A stretch of DNA of 40,334 bases from Candidatus Nomurabacteria bacterium (GCA_903862255.1 CAIOXK010000026.1:1-40334); one strand, 5' to 3'. Counted from the first letter of the stretch, positions 9,385 to 24,852 are shown. Notes: a model not told the origin generated them from the sequence alone. Program-made: numbers and translations.

Positions 9385-9756
9385 ATGAAAAAACATATGA
9401 TCATTAGTATTGCAATCGTTGCCATACTATTAATAGTACCAATGGTGGCCCACGCAGCATTTACTAGATCTTTTGGTGGCAAAGTAAAACTAACATCAGT
9501 CCCACTTATTACTTGTACAGGTAGCGGTACAGGCCCAGTAGTAATTTCAAATACTAAAGGATTTCCGCTGTATGCAACAGATGAATCAAATGCTCCTGCA
9601 GTAGGCGATTTCATTCTTGGCAAAGTGAATATCATACCAGAATTCAGCACATGCCAGCTCCAAGTAGGAACTTTTAAAATTCCTTTTCCAGTCACAGATA
9701 CGAGTAAATACAAAATTTCTGGGGGGTCTGGTCGCTTTGGCGGTTTTGGATTTTAA
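9385..9756 (+). CDS. Hypothetical secreted protein
   Basis: Signal peptide ending AHA; two Cys; TATAAT 6 nt upstream of ATG. Confidence 0.7.
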   Translation: MKKHMIISIAIVAILLIVPMVAHAAFTRSFGGKVKLTSVPLITCTGSGTGPVVISNTKGFPLYATDESNAPAVGDFILGKVNIIPEFSTCQLQVGTFKIPFPVTDTSKYKISGGSGRFGGFGF

Positions 9757-9767
9757 CCTTATATAAT

Positions 9768-10676
9768 ATGCCTCCTGTAACTACATCATCTGGCCCAAGT
9801 AAACAATTTATAATTCGAGGAGTAATTGCTATTACCCTGATTGCAGTTATTCTTGTAGTGCAAACTACATGGTTCTATAACATTTTTCATAAGACAAAAA
9901 AAGTTGCCAAGACAGATATCGGCAATCTGACCATAAACGATGTTACTTCAAAAGACTCGAATGGTAATGGTATTCCTGACTGGGAAGAACAACTCTGGGG
10001 ACTTGACCCAACAGTCTTATATACAGAAGGCAAGACAAATGAAGAAATTATTAAAGAAAAAAAACTTACTCTTGGTATTACCGACTCGAATGCCGGGGTA
10101 CCGCAAAATCAAACTGACGCTATAGCACAAAAACTCTTTAGCATTACTACAGCATTGAGCCAAAATGACAATATTGATGATACCGAACTGCAAAATGTTG
10201 CAAACCAACTAGGCTCTTCTGTAAATGTTGACTCTATTAGTAATAAGTATTCATTAAAGAATATTCATACAGTACCGACATCAACAGCCTCACTAACAGC
10301 TTATTACAAAGCTCTGAGTGCAATAACGAACAAATATAATATTAATCAAGGGGATATTACTATTATTGTGCAAGCGGCAGAAACAGGGGATTACAGTCAA
10401 CTAACCCAACTTACACCAATGGGTGTTGCATATACCACTATGGCAAAAGAACTCACAGCAGTTAAAGTACCTGTGGGGGTGGCCCAATACCATCTCGATA
10501 TTATTAATAGCTTTGCTGGTGTAGCAACATCATTTGGATACTTGCAACAAATGGAAGACGACGGTACACAAGCCCTTGTTGGGGTTGCGTTATATAAAGT
10601 ATATTTCACAAGAGGACAAAGTGCTTTGTATGATTTAGATATTTATTTAACAAAATACGGTATACTTAGTTCATAA
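9768..10676 (+). CDS. Membrane-anchored hypothetical protein with TSP3-like Ca-binding loop
   Basis: N-terminal TM helix; DSNGNGIPDWEEQLWGLDP motif. Confidence 0.72.
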   Translation: MPPVTTSSGPSKQFIIRGVIAITLIAVILVVQTTWFYNIFHKTKKVAKTDIGNLTINDVTSKDSNGNGIPDWEEQLWGLDPTVLYTEGKTNEEIIKEKKLTLGITDSNAGVPQNQTDAIAQKLFSITTALSQNDNIDDTELQNVANQLGSSVNVDSISNKYSLKNIHTVPTSTASLTAYYKALSAITNKYNINQGDITIIVQAAETGDYSQLTQLTPMGVAYTTMAKELTAVKVPVGVAQYHLDIINSFAGVATSFGYLQQMEDDGTQALVGVALYKVYFTRGQSALYDLDIYLTKYGILSS

Positions 10677-10680
10677 CATT

Positions 10681-13014
10681 ATGTCATTCTGGAAAAAAAG
10701 TATTATAACCTTCACACTAGTCGGCATTGTTGCTTTTTCACTACCAAAAAATGCAAATGCTTTGGATTGTGCCCCTGGTCAACAGCCAGATATAACAGGT
10801 AATACTTGTGTTGCTGTACCTGTTAAAAGCTATACTATCCCACTTCCACAGGCCACTACCGTTAATTGTAACTATCTCACCGGTGCAGACAAAAGCAAAT
10901 GCTTAAATGATGCCGCTTCACCAACAGTACAGAAATTTAACCCTAATGTAAAAATCAACTCAGGTAACTCTTACCAAGGTATTTCTATTAGTGGGGTAGG
11001 TGGCGCTATTGCTAGTTGTACAAATGTAGGTGGGTTTTTAATAAATACAGCAAGTAAATTTCTTGAAAAAACTACGTTTGTAAAAAGTATTAAATCTGCC
11101 TTTGGTTTCGGGGGAGACGATGACAAAGTAAGTACTACTGATACCACAACCCAAGACAAAATTGACGCCACAAACAAAACAACTAACTGTTTGAACGGTA
11201 TTGCATATGCTGTTGCAAAAAACACATTGGCACAGGTTACCAACAAGACACTAAACTGGGTAAATACTGGACTAAACGGTAATCCACTATATGTGCAAAA
11301 CAAAGGGTCGTTTTTGACTACTATTGCAAATAAACAGGTTAAATCATATCTTGCAGCACTGCCACAGACTGATTCAATCTTTGGTAATGCCCTTGAGTCA
11401 GGTATTAGACAAGGAATTACCGGCCGTTCAGATGGCATGCTTAATGTATATCCAAATACCCCACAAGCACAATCATACAAATCTTTTCTTACCGACTTCA
11501 CTTCTGGTGGATGGGACTCATTTCTCAACCCTTCATATAATGCTATCGGGGCACTATTTACAGCTACTGATACCTTAGATAAGAGTATTGCTTCTCAAAA
11601 ACAAGATGCTTCTGATGAGATTCAACGCAATAACGGCTTTCTTGATATGAAACACTGCGTGAAATATGCTGACAGCAATTTTACTCAGACAAGTACAGCA
11701 ATATCAGGAGGGCTTTCAAGTAATCCTACTTGCGTACAATGGCAAACCGATACTCCTGGCTCTGTAATTGCAGCTCAAGTACAAACAATAACAACTTCAC
11801 CTGTCAGACAACTAGAGTATGCTGACAAGATCAATGAAGTACTTGGTGGATTTTTTGATAGTTTTGTAAACAGTTTGCTACAAAAAGGCTTGCGCGGCAG
11901 CGGTACACAAGGTAGCACTGTTGATTTCGGCTTTAGCTCATCTGGAGATAACGTAGTACTAGACCCAAATGGTAATGCATTAAATACATCGGCAACAGAC
12001 ACTGGGTCATTGGGATACCAATCATCACAAGGAGGCAATGGTATCGATCAAAATTTTGACATATCTCGACCGCAACAATTTCGCCTTATTTTACAAACAC
12101 AATACGACTTCCTCGTCCGTACGAAAGATTCTCAGGCAGCACTAAACAGAATCATGCCTGATCTCGGCGCTCTTGATTATTGTATTCCTGGACCAAACCC
12201 TAACTGGTCAGCTGGCGCGTCCTCAAACCTAGAAGCAATGTTTGGCTCTTTGTCACAAGCTGACCCAACAAAAACAAATACATACCACACAGTGATAGAG
12301 AACATTCCGGTCGTTGGGTCATTCATAGGTACAATACTCGGGATCTTCGACCATGCAGGGCAAGCGCCTCCTATTTGGGAGTCCCCAGGGTATCTTAATG
12401 ATCCTGTAACAGGTACTACAATTCAAGTACCGCGTGTCTTTTTCACCTCTTGGGCACATGCATCTGATAGTCTAAGCGTAGCATCAATCTCATCAGCGTA
12501 TCACCAGGCATTCACATATGTAGCAGATCAATACTCATATTGGAACAATCCTCAGCCATATACAGATGCATTTTCACCAGTCACTTACTCAGCCACACCT
12601 GTCGAGCATGCATTTCTTGCTGCGGCACAAAATGACACCGATAAGAGCTATGTTGAAGGATTTTTGGCAGATACAAAAACAAACCTATATAGTATTTTGA
12701 GCTATAACAAGGCTGCCTCTGCTATTGATACCCAATACGATACAAATATCGGTCAAACAGAAAACAATATTCGTCAAATGTTAGTAATACAGAAACAAAT
12801 TGATGATATTGTTAGTAAAGCAAAAGCAGACTATATCAAAAAACGAGCGGCTGAAGGCAATCCTGTTGATATGCAGTGTATTAATAACGCTTACCAAATT
12901 GACGGTAGCCCAATCGTACCAATTGCACCACAAGAACAAACAGGGGGGCAAGATCCTATCGAGGCACATGCATCTGAATCAAGTAATTTCTTCTATAAGA
13001 ATATCGCTATATAA
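10681..13014 (+). CDS. Large exported Cys-containing hypothetical protein (T4SS-like cluster)
   Basis: 777 aa; signal peptide ending ANA; about 10 Cys; helical segments. Confidence 0.75.
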   Translation: MSFWKKSIITFTLVGIVAFSLPKNANALDCAPGQQPDITGNTCVAVPVKSYTIPLPQATTVNCNYLTGADKSKCLNDAASPTVQKFNPNVKINSGNSYQGISISGVGGAIASCTNVGGFLINTASKFLEKTTFVKSIKSAFGFGGDDDKVSTTDTTTQDKIDATNKTTNCLNGIAYAVAKNTLAQVTNKTLNWVNTGLNGNPLYVQNKGSFLTTIANKQVKSYLAALPQTDSIFGNALESGIRQGITGRSDGMLNVYPNTPQAQSYKSFLTDFTSGGWDSFLNPSYNAIGALFTATDTLDKSIASQKQDASDEIQRNNGFLDMKHCVKYADSNFTQTSTAISGGLSSNPTCVQWQTDTPGSVIAAQVQTITTSPVRQLEYADKINEVLGGFFDSFVNSLLQKGLRGSGTQGSTVDFGFSSSGDNVVLDPNGNALNTSATDTGSLGYQSSQGGNGIDQNFDISRPQQFRLILQTQYDFLVRTKDSQAALNRIMPDLGALDYCIPGPNPNWSAGASSNLEAMFGSLSQADPTKTNTYHTVIENIPVVGSFIGTILGIFDHAGQAPPIWESPGYLNDPVTGTTIQVPRVFFTSWAHASDSLSVASISSAYHQAFTYVADQYSYWNNPQPYTDAFSPVTYSATPVEHAFLAAAQNDTDKSYVEGFLADTKTNLYSILSYNKAASAIDTQYDTNIGQTENNIRQMLVIQKQIDDIVSKAKADYIKKRAAEGNPVDMQCINNAYQIDGSPIVPIAPQEQTGGQDPIEAHASESSNFFYKNIAI

Positions 13015-13026: not shown

Positions 13027-14136
13027 ATGAAACGAATTTTTAAAATTATCCTCATTCTTATTGCAGTATTCTTCCTTATTTTGGGGATGATGTGGCTTAT
13101 TGGTCGCAACAAAGCAATTAAAAATGGCAAGCAGCCATTGACTTTCCGTCAATTTCTAGGGCTGAGCACAAAACAAAATTCAGCAAAAACAGCTGCCGGC
13201 GAAGGAACTTCACAATTCAATGCTGACGGAACACCTAAGAACACAAGCGGGGGGGACGGCTCAGGAGCAAATGGTCTTGGAGGGAACGGTATAGACACAA
13301 GCGGCTTAGGAGGTATCGGCATTGGCGGAGCTGGAAATGTAAATATTAGTAATTTCACTAATGGTATAAGTAGCCCTGGAGGCAACTTAAACGGAAATAC
13401 TAATCCTATTACTAGCACTAACAATAGCGGCAACAGTACATCTGGTAATGGTACTGGAGCAAATAGCTCATCGGGTGGTGATGCAAACTCACCGGGGAAT
13501 TCTGATTCCGGCAGTAGCGCTGTATGTAGTGATGACGACACAAATATTCCTTTCACCCCAGACCAGTTAGCACAGCTTAACATTCTACAAAGTAGATTTT
13601 ATACACTAGCACAAACTTTACACAACGATACTGATGTTGAAACAGAGCTAGCAAACCACGACGCGTTTAAAAACAAAGCTGACTCTATCCTTGAGCTCTA
13701 TGCGTATTGTGAATCAAAACTACCGACAATTAACAGTGATCCGTCAAATGACAATAAATTGAAGCTTCATATAGCTACACCATTCTGGCGGTCATATTAC
13801 AGTAATTCAGATATTGCTACATATGTTAAACAGCAAACAGGGATTACTATTCCAGCAACAGACCCAGCACAAGACAGTTTGTCATTCCTAACATTTACGG
13901 GGGATACTCTAAATCATGTAACTACTGTTCACGATACTAGTACTGACAATCCTGAATCACCACTTCCTCGAAGTAATATTGACCAGCTTTTACCTGGCGT
14001 AGCACTTATTCGTGGACCATACGGACTTGTAACATTTTCTTCACCTCAATCAGTTCCAAATACAGGATCTTCATTGCATGATTTCGGTATCATGGAACCT
14101 GTTGTAGAAAAGTTTTTGCGCGTGAATTTGTGGTAA
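13027..14136 (+). CDS. Membrane-anchored protein with Gly/Asn/Ser-rich linker
   Basis: N-terminal TM, low-complexity G/N/S stretch, then helical domain. Confidence 0.7.
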   Translation: MKRIFKIILILIAVFFLILGMMWLIGRNKAIKNGKQPLTFRQFLGLSTKQNSAKTAAGEGTSQFNADGTPKNTSGGDGSGANGLGGNGIDTSGLGGIGIGGAGNVNISNFTNGISSPGGNLNGNTNPITSTNNSGNSTSGNGTGANSSSGGDANSPGNSDSGSSAVCSDDDTNIPFTPDQLAQLNILQSRFYTLAQTLHNDTDVETELANHDAFKNKADSILELYAYCESKLPTINSDPSNDNKLKLHIATPFWRSYYSNSDIATYVKQQTGITIPATDPAQDSLSFLTFTGDTLNHVTTVHDTSTDNPESPLPRSNIDQLLPGVALIRGPYGLVTFSSPQSVPNTGSSLHDFGIMEPVVEKFLRVNLW

Positions 14137-14166: not shown

Positions 14167-17100
14167 GTGTCCGCACGTCTACTTCGTCGCATAAAAACTT
14201 CTTTTTCTCGTTTGAGTAAAACATTCTTTTTCACTATCGCAACATTGCTGCTAGTGATTCTTTTACCGTCAAAAATCCTAGCCGCAGTACCTGATGCAAC
14301 TACGCAAAACAACTATCCGACATACTTAAACCTCTTTGATGCACCAGGAAGCGGACTTGTTATACCTGACGGTGGAGCACTTGTACAAGACGCTACCACA
14401 AAATCTATTACTGGATTAAAGGTAAACATAAATGTTGGTTTTACTTCAGTAGATACCAATCTAGTACAGGCGCGCTGGGATCATATTCAGAATGACACAC
14501 TAACAGGAAACTATTCAACTAATGATAGTTTTATTATTCGTGTCTGTGACACACTTAGCCCAACAAGCTGCTGGCTCAACAACATTCCGTATTACGATAA
14601 ACTCGATGACAGTTCCGGTATTTTAAATGTACTCACATCTGTAAAAGATGGTGCAGTAAAACAAAGCGCCTTACTTAGTAACCTAAGTATTCTTAGCTCT
14701 GATTCTGTCGGTAAAAAATGGAAATACACAAAAGTAGCCGGGAAGAACGAAGGCACTATCAGTGATTTCACCTCATTAGTATTACCAAAAGGCTCAACCG
14801 TTGAGGCGACTATGTGGTATTGTGCTGACAAAGTTGATGGCGGCGAAAAAGATGGCAGTGCTGCATATGCAAACAGTCCAAACAATGACAATATGGCAAC
14901 TTTCGGAACTCTCTGTGGAGGTGATACATATTTCCGTGTTGGCACTCCGTTACAAATATCAATTCCAACCAACGATGCTGCAGTGCAAGCACAGGTAAAT
15001 ACACAACAAGCAACAACTACAGGGTCAGGTATTACTGATAACCTTCCTCGCTGTGGAATACTTTGGGGGCAATCGGGTACTATTAATGGTTGTGCAGCTC
15101 GTATTGCATACGGTATTTATTGGCTGACTGCGACTATAGCCGGACTGCTTGGCAAAATGTTTGACTTCTTCTTAGGGTATTCATTAAGCGATACATCATA
15201 CCGCTTCGCATTTGCTATTACTGGATGGAAACTGGTACGAGATATTGCCAATGTATTTTTCATCATTCTGATGGTTTGGGCAGGGTTCTCAGCTGTGATC
15301 GATACAAATACCGGTGCAATGCGTAAGGTAGTAGTAAACCTTATTGTTAACGCATTACTGATTAACTTCAGTCTTTTTGCTACACACGTCATCATTGACC
15401 TTTCAAATGTGACTGCTCGTATGTTCTACAGTCAGATGATTGTTTGTGATCAAGTAAATATAGTAGCAGGGAAGTGTGATGCGGCGCATGCCAAAACAGG
15501 TACTGGTGGGTATTGGCCATTGTCAGAAAAAATTGTCTCTGCTTTCAACCCGCAACAGCTTTTCCAAGCTTCTATTTTGCAAAGCACTCCTGGGACATCA
15601 AGTTCAAGCAATCAACTCAACGTCAACTCTCAAACCGTCGGTACTGCTAACCCAAACTCTGAAACAGACCAAGCCAATTATTTTGGTATCGTTTGTATTG
15701 TTGCTGCCATTATTATGGTGGGTGTTGCTATCATGTTTTTCAAGGTAACATTTCTTTTTGTTGGAAGAATAGTAGGCCTCTATATATGTATGATCTTTTC
15801 TCCATTCGCGTTTTTGAGTCGAGACATTCCACTACTGGGAGGTATTGCGAAACTACGTTGGGGCGATTGGGTTAAAGAAGTTACATCATACGCACTGATG
15901 GCACCATTGTTTATGTTTTTCCTTTATATTATCTATACATTTCTTTCTAGTGATTTCGCGGCGCAGATCGGATACAAAGACCCTTCTGGAAGTTTCTTTG
16001 CTCTAGCCTTAGGAGTAGCTATCCCGATGATCATTATTTTTCTACTACTTGAACAGGCACAATCTACGGCAGAGAGCTATGCTGGTGATATCGGTAAAAA
16101 AATTCAGGGGTGGGGAAGTGCAGCAACAAGCATGGTTGCAGGTGCCGCATTAGGTGTAGCTACAGGTGGAGCGGCTTTGGCAGGGAGAAACGTTGTAGGC
16201 AGACTTGGTGCTCGACTTGAAAACTCTGAAACACTACAAGGAGCGTCAGCTAAGGGAGGAATATTAGGTTGGGCCGCTGACAAAACTATAAGCAGAGGTA
16301 GTGCGCTTTCAAAAAATACTTTTGATTTAAGAAATACTGAAGCTGGTAAAAATATACAAAAAAGAACAGGTATTAATCTTAATAATAAACTAACAAGCTT
16401 CGTTGGTGCTGGTACAAAAAATACTGACGGTGGCTTCAAAGGAGCTGTTAGTAGGGAAGAGAAAACAATTAATGAGCGTGCCGACCGCTTCCGTTTGAGC
16501 AAGGCTGCAGAAGGTGCTCAAAACGAAAAAAATAAAAACTGGGAAAAAGATTATCAAACTCACCGTGATGCGGCAGAGAGTACTGCAATTAGTAATGATA
16601 CTGTTTTTGACGAACTGCAGACAAGACGTGATTATGAAGAAGCACAAAAAAATGCAAAAAATGCTCGTCCTAAGAGTGCTGCAGAGATTAATCTTGAGCG
16701 TGAAAAACAGTTCAAAGATTCACTGGAAAAGCGAAGTGTACTTTCTAATCCACTTGCTGCAGTTGCGGAAGTTGTTACAAATCGTTTCACTGCTCCGACA
16801 GGCGCAGCTGGTACGGCAAGTGCCGCATATGGCGCTGCAACTGCAGCTACAGGAGCAGTTCTTGGTGGGGTTGGTGCCGTTGCAGCAGCGGCAGTTGTTG
16901 GGCAAGGAGCTATTCAGAGTGCTGCTCTTAAAAACGTAGTTCTCTCCCGAGCTGATAAAAATAAAGATGCACTTAGTTCAACTCAGCGAACAAAGGCTGA
17001 GGCAAAACTTCAAAACAGTCAGGCCGAACTTACAAAACTGGGCGGTAAACTCAAAAAAATTGGTGAAGAACTTGGTGGATTCAGAGGAGGAGCTCAACAC

Positions 17101-17478
17101 AATGTCCCATATAACAAAATTACCAGTGCAGATATTCTGGAATACCAAAATGAAAAGAAGGTGAAAATTGAAAGAATACAGGCTATTACTGTTACTAAAC
17201 AAAACGAAATGGCTCATCTGCAAGAAGGAATTGATGATGATAAAGAATACATTAAAAATAATGCTGGTAATCCTGCAATGGCAGCCCTGGTTGCAGCTGC
17301 TCAAGCCCGTATTGCTACAAAACGCGCAGATCAAAATACCATTCGTACTACTATTGCTGAAAATAAAAATGATGAATCTAAACTTAATAAAGAAATGGCT
17401 GACGCGCGTTCTGCATTAACAGAATACAACCGCACACAAAGCGATATTGCTACCATTCGTGGCGAATTAAAGATATAA
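14167..17478 (+). CDS. Extended VirB6/TrbL-like polytopic membrane protein
   Basis: Multi-TM core (GWKLVRDIANVFF, ALLINFSLF, RIVGLYICMIFSPFAF, ALMAPLFMFFLY); long N-terminal exported domain; C-terminal coiled coil; upstream of prgI-like and virB4. Confidence 0.7.
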   Translation: MSARLLRRIKTSFSRLSKTFFFTIATLLLVILLPSKILAAVPDATTQNNYPTYLNLFDAPGSGLVIPDGGALVQDATTKSITGLKVNINVGFTSVDTNLVQARWDHIQNDTLTGNYSTNDSFIIRVCDTLSPTSCWLNNIPYYDKLDDSSGILNVLTSVKDGAVKQSALLSNLSILSSDSVGKKWKYTKVAGKNEGTISDFTSLVLPKGSTVEATMWYCADKVDGGEKDGSAAYANSPNNDNMATFGTLCGGDTYFRVGTPLQISIPTNDAAVQAQVNTQQATTTGSGITDNLPRCGILWGQSGTINGCAARIAYGIYWLTATIAGLLGKMFDFFLGYSLSDTSYRFAFAITGWKLVRDIANVFFIILMVWAGFSAVIDTNTGAMRKVVVNLIVNALLINFSLFATHVIIDLSNVTARMFYSQMIVCDQVNIVAGKCDAAHAKTGTGGYWPLSEKIVSAFNPQQLFQASILQSTPGTSSSSNQLNVNSQTVGTANPNSETDQANYFGIVCIVAAIIMVGVAIMFFKVTFLFVGRIVGLYICMIFSPFAFLSRDIPLLGGIAKLRWGDWVKEVTSYALMAPLFMFFLYIIYTFLSSDFAAQIGYKDPSGSFFALALGVAIPMIIIFLLLEQAQSTAESYAGDIGKKIQGWGSAATSMVAGAALGVATGGAALAGRNVVGRLGARLENSETLQGASAKGGILGWAADKTISRGSALSKNTFDLRNTEAGKNIQKRTGINLNNKLTSFVGAGTKNTDGGFKGAVSREEKTINERADRFRLSKAAEGAQNEKNKNWEKDYQTHRDAAESTAISNDTVFDELQTRRDYEEAQKNAKNARPKSAAEINLEREKQFKDSLEKRSVLSNPLAAVAEVVTNRFTAPTGAAGTASAAYGAATAATGAVLGGVGAVAAAAVVGQGAIQSAALKNVVLSRADKNKDALSSTQRTKAEAKLQNSQAELTKLGGKLKKIGEELGGFRGGAQHNVPYNKITSADILEYQNEKKVKIERIQAITVTKQNEMAHLQEGIDDDKEYIKNNAGNPAMAALVAAAQARIATKRADQNTIRTTIAENKNDESKLNKEMADARSALTEYNRTQSDIATIRGELKI

Positions 17479-17485: not shown

Positions 17486-18046
17486 ATGGACCCGGTACAA
17501 AACCAAGAAGAAGTTTCTGGCATAGCCGCACTTGCCCAAACACAAGAGGGCATGGCTGCATTGGTTGCATCTAATGCATTTATGGAAGATCTTAATAGTG
17601 ATATTACCCTAACTGATGAGCAATACATTATTATTGATGGCGAGATAACTATGTACTTTTCAGAAAATAAGAGTGCTGAAGATGTTATCAGTACTGTGCG
17701 TGAACATTTATTATTTTCACTTCGTCCAGAAATAGCTGAGAGATTAGTTCATCGTGTCGACTCATTTCTGCAATTACATAAACATGTACTACCAGAAACC
17801 ATAGAAACAAAGAATACTGCTGAACCTGCAATACTGCACCAAGCAGAACCAGCATCAAACCTTTCAAGTATAACTAGCCGCCTACAACAACCATCAGCCA
17901 CAATACCAAGTACTCGCGACTACACACTACAGAAAGGAATAGTGCCAGACAACCTACCAATTACAGAACCAGCAACAGAATCAGCTGACCCTACAATAAA
18001 ACCATTGCTGATTGACCCTTACCATGAATCAATAGACAATATATAA
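17486..18046 (+). CDS. Hypothetical cytoplasmic protein
   Basis: 186 aa acidic ORF tightly packed in the cluster; ends DPYHESI. Confidence 0.65.
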   Translation: MDPVQNQEEVSGIAALAQTQEGMAALVASNAFMEDLNSDITLTDEQYIIIDGEITMYFSENKSAEDVISTVREHLLFSLRPEIAERLVHRVDSFLQLHKHVLPETIETKNTAEPAILHQAEPASNLSSITSRLQQPSATIPSTRDYTLQKGIVPDNLPITEPATESADPTIKPLLIDPYHESIDNI

Positions 18047-18048
18047 GT

Positions 18049-18447
18049 ATGCAATTCAAAGTGCCACAATTCATTGATATCGAAGATAAAGTTTTCGGAC
18101 CATTAACTTTTAAACAGTTCGTTTATATTGCTGGCGGGGCAGGATTAGCATATTTGGCATGGCATTTTTTACCAACAATTATCGCGATTGTAGTTGCTCC
18201 AGCAATTGCAATCTTTGCAGTAGCCCTGGCATTCATGAAATACAACGATAAGCCGTTTATTAATGTAGTTGAGTCGTATATCAATTTCTATAGTCATGCT
18301 CGTCTTTATTTATGGCACAAAGACTCAGACAAAAATGACGCACTCACTCGACCACACACTACACTTTCTGGTGACCGTGCTACAATGAGCGAGAGCAAAC
18401 TCAAGACACTATCTTGGAGTGTCGACGTGATTGATCCTAAAAAATAA
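18049..18447 (+). CDS. PrgI family (VirB3-like) membrane protein
   Basis: MQFKVPQFIDIEDKVFGPLTFKQF followed by two TM helices; upstream of VirB4. Confidence 0.85.
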   Translation: MQFKVPQFIDIEDKVFGPLTFKQFVYIAGGAGLAYLAWHFLPTIIAIVVAPAIAIFAVALAFMKYNDKPFINVVESYINFYSHARLYLWHKDSDKNDALTRPHTTLSGDRATMSESKLKTLSWSVDVIDPKK

Positions 18448-18462: not shown

Positions 18463-19101
18463 ATGGCTTCAGTATCATCAACTCCTGCACAACAATTTGT
18501 TCCTGTACAAGAAGTACGCGATGGTGTCGTGGTATTAAAAGACGGGTCACTTTGTACTATATTACTGGTTTCATCGATCAACCTCAGTCTTAAATCGTAC
18601 GATGAGCAGCGCGCAACACTAATGCAGTTTCAAAACTTTCTTAATACGCTCGATTTTCCTGTACAAATCGTAGTTCAGTCTCGTCGATATGATGTTCGTC
18701 CTTATATTTTAACATTAGAAAATCGCCTCAAACAACAAGAAGAGCAGTTACTACAAGTCCAAACTCGTGAATATATCCAATTTATTCAGACATTTACGGA
18801 TCAAGTAAATGTAATGCGTAAATCATTTTTTGTTATTGTTCCATATGTTCCTGCTGTATTGAAAACAAATTCAGGTCTTGGTAAGTTTTTTTCATTTCTA
18901 CAAAGCAAATCAAGAACAGAAGGTGGTGCGATCAGTGATTTCGAAGAAGAGCGCACTCAACTAGAACAACGCGTTAGTGTTGTTGACCAAGGGCTTTCAG
19001 GTGTTGGCTTGCGTCTTGTACAACTCGGCACACAAGAGGTGATTGAAGTACTCTACAAAACATTCAACCCAGGTGAGAGCACTTCTCAATCTAACGGATA
19101 G
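18463..19101 (+). CDS. TraC-like / VirB4 N-terminal-like accessory protein
   Basis: VRDGVVVLKDG, SINLSLKS..EQ, FQNFLNTLDFPVQIVVQSR; between PrgI-like and VirB4 genes. Confidence 0.75.
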   Translation: MASVSSTPAQQFVPVQEVRDGVVVLKDGSLCTILLVSSINLSLKSYDEQRATLMQFQNFLNTLDFPVQIVVQSRRYDVRPYILTLENRLKQQEEQLLQVQTREYIQFIQTFTDQVNVMRKSFFVIVPYVPAVLKTNSGLGKFFSFLQSKSRTEGGAISDFEEERTQLEQRVSVVDQGLSGVGLRLVQLGTQEVIEVLYKTFNPGESTSQSNG

Positions 19102-19126: not shown

Positions 19127-20914
19127 ATGAAAGATAACGGCGGACTCCTACCAATCTCAAATGACCAGGTTCATGAGTGGGAAACAATGGAATTGGCGGA
19201 CAAAATTGCCCCTTCTGCTATTGAAATAACTCCGAAGTCGATGCGTATCGGCGACAAAATCGTTCGTACTTTTTTTGTTATCTCATACCCCCGATACTTA
19301 ACTGATAACTGGCTAACACCTATCATCAACCTTGATAAGATTTTTGACATAGCTATTTATATTAACCCGATTGAAACAGGGGAGTTATTAAAACACTTCC
19401 AAAAAAAGATTGCTGAAGTAGAAAGCCAGATCATTGTTCGCCAACAAAAAGGTCTTGTGCGTGACCCAATGCTTGATACTGCACGAGAAGATCTCGAGGA
19501 GCTTCGTGACAACCTCACACAAGCACAAGAAAAAATGTTTGATCTAGGCATGTATATTACAATCTATGCCGATAATGAAACTGATCTTTTTCGTACAGAA
19601 AGTGAAATCAAGTCGTTGTTGGAATCAAAGCTTATCTATATAAAACCAACACTATTTCAAGAAGAAGACGGCTTCAAAACCGTTGCACCGCTTGGTACAG
19701 ATAAGTTGCAAGTAACTCAAAAACTTAATTCTGAACCAATTTCTAGTATGTTTCCATTCGTTTCGTTCGACCTAACTAGCGAAACAGGTATTCTATATGG
19801 AGTAAACCGTCACAATTCTAGTCTAGTTATATTTGATCGCTTCAGTTTAGAAAACTACAACTCTATTATTTTCGCCAAATCTGGTGCGGGTAAAAGTTAC
19901 GCGACTAAGCTTGAAATCATTCGAACATTGATGTTTGATACTGATGTTATTGTGATCGACCCTGAAAGAGAATACGAATACCTTGCCGAAGCAATTGGTG
20001 GGCGTTATTTTAATATTTCACTTTCATCAGACCACCATATTAACCCTTTTGATCTTCCTATTCCACGCGAAGACGAGTCTGCTGCTGACGTATTACGCAG
20101 TAACATTATTAACCTAGTAGGACTCTTCCGTATTATGCTCGGTGGGTTAAGTGCCGAAGAAGACTCAATCATTGACCGTGCAATTACAGAAACATATTCA
20201 TTGAAAGATATCAGTGCTGACTCTGATTTTACTACAATTGAACCGCCACTATTATCCGACTTTGAAATGGTACTTTCTGGTATGGAGGGGACTGACTCTC
20301 TCTTACAGCGCCTTACAAAATATACTCATGGTTCATGGGCAAGCTTTATCAACCAGCCAACAAACGTTGATATTAATAAGAAATTCGTTGTATTCTCTGT
20401 GCGTGATATGGAAGACGACCTTAAACCTGCTGCTATGTATATAGTTACGCACTTTATTTGGAATGCTGTTCGCAAACAGCTCAAAAAGCGCTTACTCGTA
20501 GTGGATGAGGCGTGGTGGATGATGAAATCAGATGACACTGCTTCATTCTTATATTCAATTGCAAAACGTGGACGTAAGTATTACCTTGGTCTTTGTACTA
20601 TTACCCAAGACGTTGGCGATTTCATGAAAAGCCCATATGGCGTGCCAATTATCACTAACTCATCTATTCAATTGCTTCTGAAACAATCTCCATCAACAAT
20701 GGATGTACTACAAAAAACATTTAACCTGACTGACGAGGAAAAGTATTTATTACTTGAATCTGGAGTAGGGGAAGGAATTTTCTTTGCTGGACTTAAACAT
20801 GTAGCTATTAAAATCATTGCCTCATACACCGAAGACCAGATCATCACCTCTGACCCATCACAGGTTATTTCTATCCAAAAAGCCAAGCAGGAATTTTCTC
20901 AACAAAGAGCATAA
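19127..20914 (+). CDS. virB4: VirB4-like type IV secretion ATPase
   Basis: Walker A AKSGAGKS, IDPEREY, INPFD, Walker B LLVVDEAW, KRGRKY...ITQDV. Confidence 0.88.
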   Translation: MKDNGGLLPISNDQVHEWETMELADKIAPSAIEITPKSMRIGDKIVRTFFVISYPRYLTDNWLTPIINLDKIFDIAIYINPIETGELLKHFQKKIAEVESQIIVRQQKGLVRDPMLDTAREDLEELRDNLTQAQEKMFDLGMYITIYADNETDLFRTESEIKSLLESKLIYIKPTLFQEEDGFKTVAPLGTDKLQVTQKLNSEPISSMFPFVSFDLTSETGILYGVNRHNSSLVIFDRFSLENYNSIIFAKSGAGKSYATKLEIIRTLMFDTDVIVIDPEREYEYLAEAIGGRYFNISLSSDHHINPFDLPIPREDESAADVLRSNIINLVGLFRIMLGGLSAEEDSIIDRAITETYSLKDISADSDFTTIEPPLLSDFEMVLSGMEGTDSLLQRLTKYTHGSWASFINQPTNVDINKKFVVFSVRDMEDDLKPAAMYIVTHFIWNAVRKQLKKRLLVVDEAWWMMKSDDTASFLYSIAKRGRKYYLGLCTITQDVGDFMKSPYGVPIITNSSIQLLLKQSPSTMDVLQKTFNLTDEEKYLLLESGVGEGIFFAGLKHVAIKIIASYTEDQIITSDPSQVISIQKAKQEFSQQRA

Positions 20915-20941: not shown

Positions 20942-21913
20942 GTGAAACGTTTCTCTCTCATAATAGCCACTGTTCTTACTAGCATCACAATCGCTGTATT
21001 TTTTGTTGCACATATTGTACATGCTCAAAGCGCCCAAATCGACCTTAATATTACCAGCGTTCCAGTAAACCCATTACCATTACAAAAAACAGTTATTTCT
21101 TTACAAAGCTACAGTGCTGATATTACACAAGCAGATATTTCTTGGAAATATAACAGTAAGGTTATCAGTAGTGGCAAAGGGCAAACAAGTATCACCATTA
21201 CTGCGCCAGCAAGCGGTGTCACTGGAACCATTATTGCCACTGTTTCTGGGGGTAGTTTTGATACTACCTCTAGTACATTAATACTTCGTCCTGCAAGTGT
21301 TGATATGCTATGGGAGGGGGCTGATAGCTATACACCACCATTTTATAAAGGATTACCACTACCCTCGATTGGGGGAGTTATTCGTATTATGGCAGTACCT
21401 TCAATTAATGCACCTAAGTCGATGACTTACTCATGGAGTCAAAACGGTGAAGCACTACAAAATGCTTCCGGGTATGCAAAAAATGCAATTTTAATTCAAA
21501 ACGATGGACTAACCACTACTGAACATATAGAAGTAACAGAAAAAAATGGCTCTTTCACCGGTAATAATAATGCCGATATAACACCCGGAGACCCTGTTAT
21601 AGCAGGATATTTTAACAACGATGGTTTTATAGACTATGCAAATGGTTCTACTAGCGATCTTTCTACTACTGCGCCGGGTGTGCTTATTCACTTTGAACCG
21701 TACTATTTTTCAACACCTATTAGCTTGAGCCATGACCTTACCTTCACATATGAAGATGATACTGGTGCAGAATTGACTCCTAATACTTTGAAAAATGAAC
21801 TGCCACTTTCTCGCCCAGATAATGGCGGTCAGTCTGCATTCAAAACAACAATTAGTACTATTATATTTAACCTGCAAAACGTTACTAAGCGATTTACAGT
21901 AAATTTCAACTAA
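20942..21913 (+). CDS. Exported beta-rich (Ig-like) hypothetical protein
   Basis: Signal peptide ending VHA; Thr/Ser-rich beta pattern; SYTPPFYKGLPLP. Confidence 0.72.
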   Translation: MKRFSLIIATVLTSITIAVFFVAHIVHAQSAQIDLNITSVPVNPLPLQKTVISLQSYSADITQADISWKYNSKVISSGKGQTSITITAPASGVTGTIIATVSGGSFDTTSSTLILRPASVDMLWEGADSYTPPFYKGLPLPSIGGVIRIMAVPSINAPKSMTYSWSQNGEALQNASGYAKNAILIQNDGLTTTEHIEVTEKNGSFTGNNNADITPGDPVIAGYFNNDGFIDYANGSTSDLSTTAPGVLIHFEPYYFSTPISLSHDLTFTYEDDTGAELTPNTLKNELPLSRPDNGGQSAFKTTISTIIFNLQNVTKRFTVNFN

Positions 21914-21934
21914 CTTTCGTGATAAACTAATGGT

Positions 21935-23584
21935 ATGAAAAAAATACTGTGGCTGACATTTATTTTTGTACTACTTTTTGTAGGTCATAGTTTTGCCGAC
22001 TACACCCTTAGTGTTGTTCCAAAAGGAGTAAATATAACAGCGACACTTAGTGGTGTACCTAGTGGGCGTGATATTTATAAACTTGTATTACAGACAGATA
22101 ATTTTGATGCAACAAATACCTATAGCGGAAAAACACCCTCTAGTGTTCAAATAGCAGGGGATAGTACATTATCACAAGTAACAATAACACCTCCACAAAC
22201 CACAGGTTCTGTAAAATGGACATTGGTTAATCTTAAAGCAAATACGACATATTATGCTCGCGTTGTAGATTTCCCAGCACTTGGAGGAACAGGTAAATTT
22301 ATTACTTCAGCAGTATTAATTAAAACAGGTACCATTAGTATCCCTATACAACCCCTAAGTACAACCCTTGGAGAGGGTGGGAGTATTACCGTTTCTGGTA
22401 AAGTAAATATCAATAGTATTCCTGGTTTCAGCGCTAGTAATTTCACAGCAGTACTGTATTACACAGAAACACCGGTAGCAGCATCAGCGACATCACTCCC
22501 TGACGGTAAGGGTCCATTGCGAAGTGAAGATAGTAATGGTAAGGATGGTATTAATGATGATGGAACATATTATTGGCATATTAACTCTCTCAGTCCGAGT
22601 ACAACATACTATATTCAACAAGTTGTAACACTGTATGGTAACTCAACAAGCGATACAATTGATCACTTCAATAGTAGTACTGGAAATATTATTGCATCCT
22701 CTGCTGACCAGGCAAGCTATGATGTAAAACATAGTTACACACTACTTTCCGGCTTTCCAGATCTAACAGTACTTCCAGACCCCGATCTTTGTGCACAACA
22801 GCGAGCAACAGCTGCAGCATCAGGAACAGCTGGGCCGAAGTTTTGTGATATGAATGATGTTATTAATTATTTTCTTAGTCTATTAATTGCTCTTTCTGCT
22901 GTTTCATTAGTATTTCGTCTAATGTATGAAGGCTATAAATACATGACAAGTGATGTTCCTTTTCTTAAAGCCTCTGCAAAAAGTGGTTTCTTCGCAGCAT
23001 TAGGAGGATTACTTATTGCAATGACTTCATATATTATTTTAAATACAGTAAATCCCAAATTAGTAACAAATGCTAATATCGGACCTACAACACTCGCAAT
23101 CGGAGTAACCCAACCTGATGAAGATACTGTCCCTATTATTAACCAAGGAAGCATTAGCGCCCCTGGCGGACCTATTGGGGCATGCCAAGTCGGACTAGTA
23201 AAAGTAACAGTACAAAAATCGTCATTTATTGCATGTAAATCGATTTCATCAAATCTAAGCTTAATGCTCACAGCAGCATATGCCCAAGGAATTACACTTG
23301 AGGGCGGTGGGTTCAGAACAAAAAATGAACAAATTGCCTTGCGTACCGCCCATTGTAATGGTGACTTAACTAGTCCAAAGGCTATATGTAAACCACCAAC
23401 AGCAGTACCAGGACACTCAAATCATGAAAGCGGCCTAGCATTCGATTTCACTTGCGATAATGCTTCTAATACAATTCAGACACATGACAATAAGTGTTAC
23501 ATCTGGCTATCAAATAATGCTGCAAACTATGGCTTAAAAAACTTTTCTAAAGAACCGTGGCACTGGTCAGTCGACGGCAGATAG
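21935..23584 (+). CDS. Fusion: FN3-like repeats + pilin-like TM hairpin + M15 (VanY-like) Zn peptidase
   Basis: LKANTTYY and LSPSTTYY FN3-like motifs; two-TM segment ending YIILNTVNPKL; GFR..EQ, PGHSNHESGLAFD (SxHxxGxAxD), EPWHW. Confidence 0.8.
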   Translation: MKKILWLTFIFVLLFVGHSFADYTLSVVPKGVNITATLSGVPSGRDIYKLVLQTDNFDATNTYSGKTPSSVQIAGDSTLSQVTITPPQTTGSVKWTLVNLKANTTYYARVVDFPALGGTGKFITSAVLIKTGTISIPIQPLSTTLGEGGSITVSGKVNINSIPGFSASNFTAVLYYTETPVAASATSLPDGKGPLRSEDSNGKDGINDDGTYYWHINSLSPSTTYYIQQVVTLYGNSTSDTIDHFNSSTGNIIASSADQASYDVKHSYTLLSGFPDLTVLPDPDLCAQQRATAAASGTAGPKFCDMNDVINYFLSLLIALSAVSLVFRLMYEGYKYMTSDVPFLKASAKSGFFAALGGLLIAMTSYIILNTVNPKLVTNANIGPTTLAIGVTQPDEDTVPIINQGSISAPGGPIGACQVGLVKVTVQKSSFIACKSISSNLSLMLTAAYAQGITLEGGGFRTKNEQIALRTAHCNGDLTSPKAICKPPTAVPGHSNHESGLAFDFTCDNASNTIQTHDNKCYIWLSNNAANYGLKNFSKEPWHWSVDGR

Positions 23585-23601
23585 TGTAGTACAATATTCA
23601 T

Positions 23602-24852
23602 ATGCGAAAAGCGCTCATAATCTTATTGATACTTATTTTTCTTGTTGCAGGGGTATATTTTTTCTATATCAAACCAAATACACAAGCAGGGAAGCCTGTG
23701 CCAAATATACTTACTTCTTTCTTTCCAAAGACAACAAGTATTGGTAGTAACTTTGGTTCAGACACTAACCCTGATGGAACAGCTACCAACACCACTATCG
23801 CACCAGCAATAGAGCCCGCACTAAAACAACTCTCACCACGACCAATCGCTGGATATACTGTTTATAGTCTTAGTAATACCGTTTCAACACCATCAACAAA
23901 CCCGAAGGTGAAACCAGTAATAACTGTTACTATTGATCATTTTATTCGATATGTTTCTCGAATAAATGGTTATGTATATGAAATAAAAAACAAAGATATT
24001 CCTCTACAGATCAGTAATATTTTTATTCCCAATATCTATGAGGCATCTTTTGCTGACAACAATAATACAGCTATTTTACGATTCTTGCGTGCTGACAACA
24101 ATACAATCGCGACATATACAGTACCTATTCCAGCACTAAATTCAGATGGTACCCGCACACAAATTCCCGGTATTTACTTACAAGACAACATATACAACTT
24201 AACTGTATCACCTGACCAAAAAAATCTGCTTCGTGTCACTCGAGATAGTACTGGAACAATACTTAGCACATCAACTACAAGAGGCGCATCTGTTAAAAAA
24301 TTGTTTACCTCTACTTTTATGTCATGGTTACCACAATGGGTGAATTCTGGTATTTATTTACAAACAAAAGCAGCCTCAAAAGTTGATGGGTATGTTTACC
24401 TATTAGATCAAAAAAACTCTCGATTAAGCCGTATTACGGGAAATATTAAAGGGCTTACTACTTCTATAAGCCCTAGTGGTCAATATATATTATATTCAGA
24501 AAGTTCAGGCTCAGGTTTTTCTACCAAGCTCTATAACACCAAAACAAGCACTGTTTCTACCATTAGTTTAAATATTTTACCTGAGAAATGTGTATGGTTA
24601 AAAAATGAAGATCTCATCTGTGCAGGAAGTGATTCAGTTGACCCTGCCATTTATCCAGATGGATGGTATGCCGGCATTAATCATTTTAGTGACAACCTTT
24701 ATCGTATTAGTACTGCTTCAAATAATTTCAGCACAATCTATACAGCAGGTACACCAACATATGATATGACAAACTTACAAGTAGACGAAGACCGAGGGTT
24801 GGTATTCTTTATCGACAAAAATACAGGGTTACTTTGGCAATATAGATATTAA
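23602..24852 (+). CDS. Membrane-anchored probable beta-propeller protein
   Basis: N-terminal TM; TolB/PD40-like blades VSPDQKNL and ISPSGQYILY. Confidence 0.7.
   Translation: MRKALIILLILIFLVAGVYFFYIKPNTQAGKPVPNILTSFFPKTTSIGSNFGSDTNPDGTATNTTIAPAIEPALKQLSPRPIAGYTVYSLSNTVSTPSTNPKVKPVITVTIDHFIRYVSRINGYVYEIKNKDIPLQISNIFIPNIYEASFADNNNTAILRFLRADNNTIATYTVPIPALNSDGTRTQIPGIYLQDNIYNLTVSPDQKNLLRVTRDSTGTILSTSTTRGASVKKLFTSTFMSWLPQWVNSGIYLQTKAASKVDGYVYLLDQKNSRLSRITGNIKGLTTSISPSGQYILYSESSGSGFSTKLYNTKTSTVSTISLNILPEKCVWLKNEDLICAGSDSVDPAIYPDGWYAGINHFSDNLYRISTASNNFSTIYTAGTPTYDMTNLQVDEDRGLVFFIDKNTGLLWQYRY

What the first reader, a model, noticed from the sequence alone, without database searches (positions are those of the whole stretch)
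9385..24852. Chromosomal, relaxase-less T4SS-like machine abutting the origin operon
Seen: 12 co-oriented genes between rsmA and yidC, including PrgI/VirB3-like, TraC-like, VirB4, VirB6-like and pilin-like components plus six unassigned exported or membrane-anchored proteins. No relaxase, VirD4, VirB11, integrase or att repeat was seen at the borders. Known: minimal VirB4/PrgI/VirB6 systems resemble monoderm conjugation channels, and T4SS-like loci are reported in Patescibacteria with unresolved function. Inference: a domesticated, non-conjugative apparatus for host attachment, effector delivery or DNA/nutrient uptake, whose unknown genes may be undescribed structural subunits. Strongest system-level candidate in the window.
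Basis: partly seen in the sequence, partly recalled or inferred. Interest (0 to 1): 0.8.

Follow-up and report, generated by a model that had tools for sequence, protein, structure and literature searches.

The report
Chromosomal Patescibacteria type IV secretion locus
This is the chromosomal, non-conjugative type IV secretion machine already described in ultrasmall Patescibacteria, here in a Nomurabacteria-like genome, and one of its genes joins a pilin module to a cell-wall-cutting enzyme whose type changes rapidly between relatives.

Summary
Twelve tightly packed, co-oriented genes (9385-24852) lie between rsmA and a convergent yidC-yidD-rnpA-rpmH | dnaA-dnaN block. Recognisable parts are PrgI/VirB3, a split VirB4 (TrsD-like piece plus a CD1110-type ATPase) and a weakly supported VirB6/TrbL-like membrane protein.

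The locus is not an ICE. No match to five relaxase Pfam families was found in the 89%-complete genome. No flanking repeats were found. The order is syntenic in up to 80 related species, and VirB4 is present in 145 of 151 phylum genomes sampled.

"No VirD4" is true only for the window. Two soluble T4CP-like ATPases and two VirB2-like pilin arrays lie on other contigs.

The system as a class is already published (PMC12102498, PMC10633639), including its lack of a relaxase and its position near dnaA. Its function remains unknown.

New here are fold-level assignments: gene 10 has three Ig-like domains, gene 12 is a membrane-anchored beta-propeller, and gene 6 belongs to a conserved soluble family. 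Also new is the near-random swapping of the hydrolase head on the pilin-fusion gene across the VirB4 tree.

The parts
9385..9756 (+). g1: 123-aa protein with an N-terminal signal-peptide-like segment. No family assigned. Lineage-restricted.
   Evidence: Translation. No Pfam or NCBIfam hit. tblastn found it in 2 of 50 related loci with enough flank. The signal peptide was read by eye; no predictor was run.
9768..10676 (+). g2: 302-aa protein with one N-terminal TM segment. It has a conserved acidic D-x-D-G-D-G-I-x-D-W-E-E motif followed by a helical ectodomain.
   Evidence: Alignment A3, 29 sequences, with D63, W72, E74 and L76 invariant. Detected in 37 of 52 loci. No PDB or Pfam match.
10681..13014 (+). 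g3: 777-aa exported protein with conserved cysteines. It belongs to a family of unnamed hypothetical proteins whose recorded members are mostly Minisyncoccota (= Patescibacteria). Fold unknown.
   Evidence: Alignment A7. Detected in 46 of 54 loci. No consistent Pfam family among 29 members. No PDB match. ESM Atlas gave only unnamed clusters, commonest phylum Minisyncoccota, and a model with pLDDT 0.36.
13027..14136 (+). g4: 369-aa TM-anchored protein with a G/N/S-rich low-complexity spacer. It occupies a variable slot.
   Evidence: Translation. No family. Detected in 8 of 56 loci. The slot holds unrelated or no ORFs in other loci.
14167..17478 (+). g5: 1103-aa extended VirB6/TrbL-like polytopic membrane protein. 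It has an exported N-domain, several TM segments and a long C-terminal coiled-coil tail.
   Evidence: NF046089 CD3337/EF1877, E 0.0023, below the cut-off. Among 29 orthologues, 4 match NF046089, 4 match MMCAP2_0566 conjugal transfer protein and 1 matches ICE_Mbov_0396_TM. Atlas features for aa 280-700 place it next to clusters carrying TrbL_3 (scores 0.96, 0.95, 0.92). No Pfam hit. Detected in 59 of 60 loci. The Atlas record starts at residue 16, so the start codon is uncertain.
17486..18046 (+). g6: 186-aa soluble protein of a conserved slot family. It has a helical N-domain, a disordered linker and a C-terminal D-P-Y-[RH]-E motif.
   Evidence: All 63 loci examined have one or more ORFs between g5 and g7. 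An iterative HMM joins 76 of the 89 sequences searched (88 slot ORFs plus g6 itself) into one family. Alignment A8 has D177, P178 and Y179 nearly invariant. No hydrophobic segment.
18049..18447 (+). g7: PrgI / VirB3-like small membrane protein.
   Evidence: PF12666, 6e-12, 46.4 bits against a cut-off of 27. Detected in 76 of 76 loci.
18463..19101 (+). g8: TrsD-like protein, a free-standing N-terminal domain of VirB4.
   Evidence: NF045975, 5.5e-11, matching VirB4 residues 104-233. NF041427 TrsD, 1.2e-6. Both are below their cut-offs. Detected in 78 of 78 loci, always as a separate ORF.
19127..20914 (+). g9: VirB4 ATPase of the CD1110 / MPF-FATA type. Walker A (GAGKS) and Walker B (VVDEAW) are intact.
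   Evidence: NF045971, 6.5e-114, 381.8 bits against a cut-off of 325. PF19044 and PF12846 also match. Motifs are visible in the translation. 74-97% identical in 80 of 80 related loci. Mean column identity is 86%.
20942..21913 (+). g10: 323-aa exported or anchored protein made of three tandem Ig/Fn3-like beta-sandwich domains.
   Evidence: AlphaFold2 on A2: pLDDT 90.0, pTM 0.68. Foldseek against PDB hit NCAM Ig1-3, titin and phage Hoc; the matches are generic, with TM-scores normalised to the query (TMq) of 0.18-0.38. Detected in 75 of 75 loci.
21935..23584 (+). g11: signal peptide, then a variable Fn3-like ectodomain, then a VirB2-like pilin hairpin (about aa 268-376), then a C-terminal VanY peptidoglycan peptidase.
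   Evidence: VanY PF02557, 2.9e-11. The window's own hairpin scores only 13.4 bits against PF18895. However, 56 of the 67 proteins in the alignment (66 orthologues plus window g11) match PF18895 and 17 match TrbC. hhalign of A4 against this genome's own pilins (A9) gave 96.4%, E 1.2e-9, over aa 309-372. Detected in 65 of 69 loci.
23602..24852 (+). g12: 416-aa protein with an N-terminal TM helix, a disordered linker and an extracytoplasmic beta-propeller.
   Evidence: AlphaFold2 on A1: pLDDT 86.4, pTM 0.79. Foldseek hits were generic propellers, including TolB 7mx5 at 4.2e-8. The profile against PDB hit TolB at E 0.0099. Detected in 66 of 66 loci.

Best explanation
This is the core operon of the Patescibacteria-type type IV secretion system (T4SS). 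That system descends from the monoderm MPF-FATA conjugation machinery. It is now a vertically inherited chromosomal organelle in a Candidatus Nomurabacteria-like (Paceibacteria) genome.

Shown:
- The locus encodes a VirB6/TrbL-like protein and a PrgI/VirB3 membrane protein.
- It encodes a split VirB4 ATPase (g8 plus g9) with intact Walker motifs.
- It encodes a pilin-hydrolase fusion (g11).
- It encodes conserved extracytoplasmic accessory proteins: g10 (three Ig-like domains), g12 (beta-propeller), g2 and g3.
- It encodes a conserved soluble protein, g6.
- VirB2-like pilin arrays and two TM-less T4CP-like ATPases lie on other contigs.

Inferred mechanism:
- VirB4 on the VirB3/VirB6 platform extracts VirB2-like pilins from the membrane and assembles a pilus or conduit.
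- g11 brings a peptidoglycan-cleaving head to that site through its pilin hairpin, opening the wall of the cell itself and/or of the host.
- The Ig-like and propeller proteins form the wall-spanning scaffold.
- The machine serves the epibiotic lifestyle, not conjugation.

The cargo and its direction are not shown. My odds, given that the machine works at all, are uptake of host macromolecules about 45%, export of proteins about 35%, and attachment only about 20%.
For: Family assignments are.

Vertical inheritance:
- VirB4 was found in 39 of 41 relatives at 71-98% identity, in 80 of 80 related loci at 74-97%, and in 145 of 151 phylum genomes.
- The gene order rsmA-g2-g3-...-g5-g6-g7-g8-g9-g10-g11-g12-yidC-dnaA is kept, with the k-of-n counts.
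- VirB4 is more conserved than DnaA (51-90%) in the same loci.

Not conjugative:
- No match to PF03432, PF03389, PF01076, PF13814 or PF02486 in the genome.
- Only one tyrosine recombinase was found, 8 kb away among housekeeping genes.
- No flanking repeats.

Pilins: six PF18895 genes score over the cut-off on C11 and C19.

Literature:
- The same system is described phylum-wide, without a relaxase and near dnaA, rnpA and ksgA (PMC12102498, sections 12-14 read).
- It is essential for epibiotic growth of S. epibionticum, while the t4cp gene is not (PMC12102498 section 13; PMC10633639 passages; PMC12857230 passages).
Against: - There are no expression data.
- The VirB6 assignment rests on sub-threshold matches and language-model neighbours.
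- The window's own g11 hairpin is below the Pfam cut-off; only the orthologue profile is significant.
- The genome is 89% complete.
- Only five relaxase Pfam families were searched. TrwC/MOBF, MOBH, MOBB and MOBM were not.
- No tree with outgroups was built to place this VirB4 inside the published Patescibacteria clade.
- No pilus, cargo or host is known for this organism.
Confidence: 0.8

Rival explanations
1. It is an ordinary integrative conjugative element or plasmid-derived conjugation module that still moves DNA between cells.
For: VirB4 is of the CD1110 type found on Gram-positive conjugative plasmids. The best plasmid hits are 29-36% identical. A Brevibacillus plasmid has the same PrgI-VirB4-hydrolase order. 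T4CP-like ATPases exist in the genome.
Against: - No match to five relaxase Pfam families in the genome.
- No integrase or repeats at the borders.
- Fixed position beside yidC/dnaA in 63 of 64 loci.
- Present in 145 of 151 phylum genomes.
- GC content (36-44% per kb across the cluster) stays within the range of the rest of the window (33-43% per kb).
- The T4CP-like genes are unlinked, lack TM segments, and sit among clpP and rny.
Confidence: 0.02
2. It is an import machine, analogous in function to H. pylori ComB or the archaeal Ced system. It would pull host DNA, RNA or other macromolecules into a cell that cannot make nucleotides.
For: - The locus has no relaxase.
- There is a weak CedB match (NF041017, 8.9e-9, 34.5 bits).
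- Reviews propose this role because comEC is dispensable while the T4SS is essential in S. epibionticum (PMC11665869 and PMC12857230, passages read).
- A 2026 preprint reports host-RNA feeding and possible T4SS pili in a cultivated relative (10.64898/2026.06.21.733656, passages read).
Against: Nothing in the sequence gives direction. The CedB score is far below its cut-off of 700. No nuclease or nucleic-acid-binding domain was found in the 12 genes.
Confidence: 0.35
3. It is only a pilus-assembly and adhesion apparatus. VirB4 builds VirB2-like pili for host attachment and nothing is translocated.
For: Pilin arrays are present. A pilin module sits in the core operon. Ig-like and propeller ectodomains are typical of adhesion or scaffolding. 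No coupling protein lies in the locus.
Against: The extended VirB6-like channel protein and the strictly conserved VirB4 (86% mean column identity) would also fit translocation. The genome also has a type IV pilus ATPase for adhesion and motility (38343-40175).
Confidence: 0.15

Closest known systems
Patescibacteria-clade T4SS (Quinonero-Coronel et al. 2025, PMC12102498; S. epibionticum SEML1_0006-0019, Wang et al. 2023, PMC10633639)
   Same: It shares the TrsD-like piece plus VirB4, PrgI and a VirB6-like protein. VirB2-like pilins are present, no relaxase is found, and T4CP homologues are unlinked. It has the same chromosomal position near dnaA, dnaN, rnpA, rpmH and ksgA, and peptidoglycan hydrolases lie just downstream of virB4.
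   Different: In this Paceibacteria lineage the pilin arrays lie on other contigs. The only pilin module in the operon is fused to a hydrolase. The g10-g11-g12 trio was found by my HMMs in only 1 of 20 loci from other lineages each for g10 and g12. I found no mention of the fusion or its head swapping in the main text. The supplements could not be read.
MPF-FATA conjugative T4SS of Gram-positive plasmids and ICEs (CTn2/CD1110 type; the pGO1 Trs and pCF10 Prg subtypes are named from PMC12102498)
   Same: The VirB4 family is the same (NF045971, over its cut-off). The PrgI-VirB4-hydrolase order matches Brevibacillus plasmid NZ_CP144923.1. The split TrsD piece matches the pGO1 subtype.
   Different: There is no relaxase, MobC or membrane-anchored VirD4 in the locus. 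VirB2-like pilins are present, which Gram-positive systems lack. Inheritance is vertical. The plasmid's 817-aa NlpC/P60 protein shows no pilin hairpin with my HMMs (one comparator only).
VirB1-like T4SS cell-wall hydrolases (PrgK, TraG of pIP501, CD419/TrsG), as described in PMC12102498 section 13
   Same: g11 is a membrane-anchored peptidoglycan hydrolase encoded just after virB4. In another Paceibacteria family the fusion carries two lytic domains, M23 plus SLT_3, as the multidomain PrgK does.
   Different: The anchor is a VirB2-like pilin hairpin. The catalytic head is not a fixed SLT/CHAP pair. At least ten head classes are shared by two or more species, and they turn over almost at random on the VirB4 tree.
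DNA-import T4SS-like systems (H. pylori ComB; Sulfolobales Ced)
   Same: They are relaxase-less, chromosomal, and VirB4-dependent.
   Different: No membership can be claimed: CedB scores 34.5 bits against a cut-off of 700. ComB is a diderm MPF-T system; that point is recalled, not tested.

Membership tests
Patescibacteria-clade T4SS (PMC12102498) | VirB4 ATPase related to MPF-FATA | tested here: met
   NF045971, 381.8 bits against a cut-off of 325. Walker A and B are present.
Patescibacteria-clade T4SS (PMC12102498) | VirB4 falls inside the monophyletic Patescibacteria clade | tested here: inconclusive
   No tree with outgroups was built. Indirectly, it is 42-58% identical to VirB4 in 145 of 151 phylum genomes, against 29-36% for the best plasmid hits.
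Patescibacteria-clade T4SS (PMC12102498) | Separate TrsD-like gene next to virB4 | tested here: met
   g8 matches NF041427 at 1.2e-6 and NF045975 at 5.5e-11, both below their cut-offs. It is a separate ORF in 78 of 78 loci.
Patescibacteria-clade T4SS (PMC12102498) | VirB3/PrgI homologue next to virB4 | tested here: met
   PF12666, 46.4 bits against a cut-off of 27.
Patescibacteria-clade T4SS (PMC12102498) | VirB6-like polytopic protein | tested here: inconclusive
   Only sub-threshold NCBIfam matches and Atlas feature neighbours carrying TrbL_3. Pfam gave nothing.
Patescibacteria-clade T4SS (PMC12102498) | VirB2-like pilins (PF18895 / PF04956) | tested here: met
   Six genes score over the cut-off on contigs C11 and C19. 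The g11 hairpin is homologous at profile level.
Patescibacteria-clade T4SS (PMC12102498) | No relaxase; chromosomal, near the replication-origin genes | tested here: met
   No match to five relaxase Pfam families (genome 89% complete; other MOB classes not searched). dnaA lies 1.5 kb beyond the cluster.
Conjugative ICE / plasmid T4SS | Relaxase plus linked, membrane-anchored coupling protein | tested here: not met
   Searches found no relaxase match. The T4CP-like genes are unlinked and have no hydrophobic segment.
Conjugative ICE / plasmid T4SS | Integrase and att repeats at the borders; patchy distribution | tested here: not met
   for the borders. Distribution: 39 of 41 relatives and 145 of 151 phylum genomes.
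Ced / ComB DNA-import systems | CedB-type or ComB-type ATPase at equivalog level | tested here: not met
   NF041017 CedB, 34.5 bits against a cut-off of 700. CedD, 20.8 bits against 600.
VirB2/TrbC pilin family (for g11, aa ~268-376) | Two-helix hydrophobic hairpin matching PF18895 / PF04956 | tested here: met
   The window copy scores 13.4 bits, below the cut-off. Of the 67 proteins in the alignment (66 orthologues plus window g11), 56 match PF18895 and 17 match PF04956 at E<=0.01. hhalign gave 96.4%, E 1.2e-9.
VirB2/TrbC pilin family (for g11, aa ~268-376) | Polymerises into a pilus | not testable with these tools
   Needs pilus purification or cryo-EM.

The most novel reading that the evidence does not exclude
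The g11-type proteins are pilin-borne wall-breaching warheads. Their VirB2-like hairpin would load them into, or at the tip or base of, the T4SS pilus. Their interchangeable catalytic head (VanY, NlpC/P60, YkuD, SLT, M15, amidase and at least four unnamed types) would be swapped to match the peptidoglycan chemistry of each lineage's host. Head type would then be a genomic predictor of host range in uncultivated Paceibacteria. This rests on near-random head turnover on the VirB4 tree, set against a strictly conserved pilin module and neighbourhood.
Probability: 0.25. Interest if true: 0.75.

Novelty: new member of a known kind. Interest (0 to 1): 0.4.

Why it matters
The Patescibacteria T4SS is essential for epibiotic growth in the one species tested. 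Its function is called completely unknown in a 2024 perspective (PMC11665869, passages read).

This locus adds a clean Paceibacteria example with a gene-by-gene parts list. It shows which of the unknown genes are conserved partners of VirB4 (g2, g3, g6 family, g10, g12) and which are not (g1, g4).

It also points to one testable handle on mechanism. A pilin module is fused to a peptidoglycan hydrolase whose catalytic type changes between species that share 97% identical VirB4. If that head acts on the host wall, it links the machine to host penetration and host specificity.

Tried and rejected
- Promoter and terminator scans were uninformative: 46 promoter-like sites against 57 expected.
- DnaA boxes are not enriched: 17 against 13.7 expected.
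- PDB profile searches gave nothing usable for g10, g2, g3 and g5.
- Pfam across orthologue sets gave no consistent family for g5 and g3.
- The ESM Atlas search for g3 returned only unnamed clusters (commonest phylum Minisyncoccota) and a poor model.
- Complex prediction with g9 + g8 + g6 returned no verdict (score 0.08 against a mark of 0.32). This is not evidence either way.
- The look-up of sequencing runs listed no RNA holder.
- The Pam pilus preprint (PMC13278184) was checked as a possible identity for the Ig-like g10. It does not mention a T4SS or Paceibacteria, so the idea was dropped.
- The ICE reading was considered and rejected (see rivals).
- The search of earlier findings returned nothing for this place.
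- Not run: MacSyFinder/CONJScan, VirB11 (PF00437 would also hit the type IV pilus ATPase at 38343-40175), TrwC/MOBH/MOBB/MOBM relaxase profiles, and a VirB4 tree with outgroups.
- Note 5 in the notebook miscounts the 20 phylum loci. The recount is g9 19, g8 18, g7 18, g5 11 of 20. L114 lost its VirB4 to an overlapping opposite-strand ORF in my ORF caller.

Full report
**Observation.** The window is one whole 40.3-kb contig of a 670-kb, 43-contig genome estimated 89% complete. Twelve + strand ORFs fill 9385-24852, with gaps of 2-38 nt. Upstream lie uvrD/pcrA and rsmA (RrnaAD, 1.6e-51). Downstream, and convergent, lies yidC (1.2e-42), whose 3' end overlaps gene 12 by 4 nt. After yidC come yidD, rnpA and rpmH on the minus strand, then dnaA and dnaN. 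Cumulative GC skew reaches its minimum at about 24-29 kb, which fits an origin there. No tRNA is present, and no direct repeat of 15 nt or more brackets the cluster.

**Recognisable parts.** g7 is PrgI/VirB3 (46.4 bits against a cut-off of 27). g9 is a CD1110-family VirB4 (381.8 bits against 325) with Walker A and B visible in the translation. g8 matches only the N-terminal 100-230 residues of VirB4 proteins and TrsD, below the cut-offs. PMC12102498 (section 13) reports this TrsD arrangement as the most abundant component in Patescibacteria.

g5 (1103 aa) has an exported N-domain, several hydrophobic segments and a coiled-coil tail. Support for calling it VirB6 is weak but consistent:
- NF046089 at E 0.0023.
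- Among 29 orthologues, 4 match NF046089, 4 match a Mycoplasma conjugal-transfer family and 1 matches ICE_Mbov_0396_TM.
- Language-model neighbours of aa 280-700 carry TrbL_3 (scores 0.96, 0.95, 0.92).
- Pfam found nothing.

g11 carries a C-terminal VanY peptidase domain (2.9e-11). Aligning its orthologues shows that the only conserved core is a 'Y-x-L-L-A-P-L-P' motif plus a two-helix hydrophobic hairpin. Of the 67 proteins in the alignment (66 orthologues plus window g11), 56 match PF18895 T4SS_pilin and 17 match TrbC/VirB2 at E<=0.01. The window's own copy scores only 13.4 bits. The orthologue profile nevertheless aligns to this genome's own bona fide pilins with 96.4% probability, E 1.2e-9, over g11 residues 309-372. 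g11 is therefore a VirB2-like pilin module with extracytoplasmic domains on both sides.

**Head swapping.** The C-terminal domain differs between orthologues. Pfam finds NlpC/P60 in 13, VanY in 11, YkuD in 5, SLT_2 in 4, Peptidase_M15_4 in 3, SLT in 2 and Amidase_2 in 1, among others.

blastp clustering of the tails gives 21 classes among 67. Nine tails form an unnamed class with no Pfam hit. Three further unnamed classes also exist.

On a VirB4 tree of the same 67 loci (quick IQ-TREE; 21 of 64 inner forks unresolved), the class changes at least 44 times. The minimum possible is 20. Shuffled labels gave a mean of 48.9, and 7 of 300 shuffles reached 44 or fewer. Using only the ten classes with two or more members, there are 33 changes in 56 rows, against a minimum of 9 and a shuffled mean of 37.8.

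Of 13 well-supported two-tip forks, 9 have different heads, 3 the same and 1 is unclear. The window has VanY. Its nearest relative, with 97% identical VirB4, has NlpC/P60.

A 701-aa protein in another family of the same class combines T4SS_pilin, Peptidase_M23 and SLT_3, so the fusion is not confined to one family. One Gram-positive plasmid with the same PrgI-VirB4-hydrolase order has an NlpC/P60 protein in which my pilin HMMs find nothing. That is a single comparator.

**The unknowns.**
- g10 folds confidently (pLDDT 90.0) into an N-terminal helix plus three Ig/Fn3-like sandwiches. The Foldseek matches are generic.
- g12 folds (pLDDT 86.4, pTM 0.79) into a TM helix, a disordered linker and a beta-propeller. 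The matches are generic propellers, including TolB.
- g6 has no hydrophobic segment. Every one of 63 loci has one or more ORFs between g5 and g7. An iterative HMM unites 76 of the 89 sequences searched (88 slot ORFs plus g6 itself) in one family. The family has a helical N-domain, a disordered linker and a C-terminal D-P-Y-[RH]-E motif.
- g2 has a conserved acidic D-x-D-G-D-G motif.
- g3 belongs to a family of unnamed hypothetical proteins whose recorded members are mostly Minisyncoccota (= Patescibacteria). No fold could be assigned.
- g1 and g4 are lineage-restricted.
- Signal peptides and TM anchors were read from the sequences and from a crude hydropathy script. No predictor was run.

**Not an ICE.** Five relaxase Pfam families give no match in the genome. 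The only tyrosine recombinase found is a XerC/D-like gene 8 kb upstream, separated from the cluster by comM-like, M23/LysM, uvrD and rsmA genes.

VirB4 occurs in 39 of 41 relatives and 145 of 151 phylum genomes. In 80 loci from named Nomurabacteria and Paceibacteria assemblies, the neighbours are found on the expected side as follows:

| Gene | Found / loci with enough flank |
|---|---|
| g7 | 76 / 76 |
| g8 | 78 / 78 |
| g10 | 75 / 75 |
| g12 | 66 / 66 |
| g11 | 65 / 69 |
| g5 | 59 / 60 |
| g3 | 46 / 54 |
| g2 | 37 / 52 |
| yidC | 63 / 64 |
| dnaA | 57 / 59 |

VirB4 (74-97% identity) is more conserved than DnaA (51-90%) in those loci.

In 20 loci from other lineages of the phylum, the core survives. 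My recount gives g9 19, g8 18, g7 18, g5-like 11, pilin genes 10, and dnaA or dnaN 10, each of 20. g10 and g12 are each hit in one locus only, so the downstream trio is lineage-specific.

**Parts outside the window.**
- Six PF18895 pilin genes score over the cut-off on C11 (next to gyrA) and at the end of C19.
- Two T4CP-like ATPases lie at C32:4361-7069 and C5:23287-25410. The first scores over the Pfam cut-offs for T4SS-DNA_transf, TrwB_AAD_bind and TraG-D_C.
- Both T4CP-like proteins lack hydrophobic segments.
- 41 of 41 relatives have at least one, and usually two.
- 'No VirD4' is therefore true of the locus, not of the genome.

**Literature.** PMC12102498 (sections 12-14 read) describes this system across 3,035 Patescibacteria genomes. 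It reports a monophyletic VirB4 clade nested in MPF-FATA, TrsD, PrgI, VirB6, VirB2-like pilin arrays, unlinked T4CPs, and relaxases in only 103 genomes. It also notes proximity to dnaA, dnaN, rnpA, ksgA and rpmH. Wang et al. 2023 (PMC10633639, passages read) showed the cluster SEML1_0006-0019 to be essential in S. epibionticum. Reviews call its role unknown (PMC11665869 and PMC12857230, passages read). A 2026 preprint reports possible T4SS pili and host-RNA feeding (10.64898/2026.06.21.733656, passages read).

The main text of PMC12102498 does not contain NlpC, VanY or YkuD, and mentions 'fusion' only for VirB3-VirB4. Two full-text searches turned up no paper describing pilin-hydrolase fusions. 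Supplementary tables were closed and may list them.

**Verdict.** The locus is a new member of a known kind. The added value is the parts list and the pilin-hydrolase fusion with rapid head turnover. That pattern is what would be expected of a component under host-driven diversification. It could equally reflect relaxed non-orthologous replacement of a self-wall hydrolase.

Noticed in passing
window 9385-24852 relative to 24000-29000: Cumulative GC skew bottoms at about 24-29 kb, so the origin lies just right of the cluster. The whole 15-kb operon would then be transcribed towards the origin, head-on to the leftward replication fork. The same orientation is kept in related loci. PMC12102498 discusses gene dosage here, but I saw no mention of orientation in the sections read.
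   Followed up: partly
related loci L018-L097: The VirB4 C-terminal piece is more conserved (74-97% identity) than DnaA (51-90%) and DnaN (38-91%) in the same loci. Its mean column identity is 86% across 25 species.
   Followed up: partly
genome contigs C32:4361-7069 and C5:23287-25410: There are two paralogous T4CP-like ATPases without any hydrophobic segment. One is flanked by clpP and rny. The C5 copy has a long, low-complexity (apparently disordered) C-terminal tail. 41 of 41 relatives have at least one.
   Followed up: partly
genome contigs C11:12-2306 and C19:11383-12048: VirB2-like pilin arrays (4 and 2 genes) both sit at contig ends. They may be one array broken by assembly. One member (310 aa) has a long Cys- and Thr-rich N-terminal extension.
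   Followed up: no
window 37757-38299 and 38343-40175: An IS200-like Y1 transposase (3.3e-12) lies next to a PilB-type T2SSE ATPase with an MshEN domain (7.6e-116). The latter is probably the type IV pilus motor.
   Followed up: no
phylum genomes G046, G049, G052, G096, G136, G169, G170, G187: The primary VirB4 matches in these eight genomes contain 1-2 in-frame stops, mostly TAA. Second, weaker VirB4 copies in G068 and G123 also carry one stop each. This could be frame errors, match ends running past the ORF, or recoding. It was not examined.
   Followed up: no
window 14167-14211: The ESM Atlas record of g5 starts at residue 16 of my ORF, so the true start may be 45 nt downstream of the GTG at 14167.
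   Followed up: no
window 5179-6375 (-), 29337-31859 (-): A LysM-M23 peptidase and a class A PBP (transglycosylase plus transpeptidase) flank the region. The organism therefore makes peptidoglycan, which keeps a self-wall role for g11 plausible.
   Followed up: no
loci L120, L121, L123: In some other Patescibacteria lineages the PrgI-like domain sits in much longer proteins (547-691 aa) directly upstream of the TrsD-like gene. This suggests fusions of VirB3 with another component.
   Followed up: no
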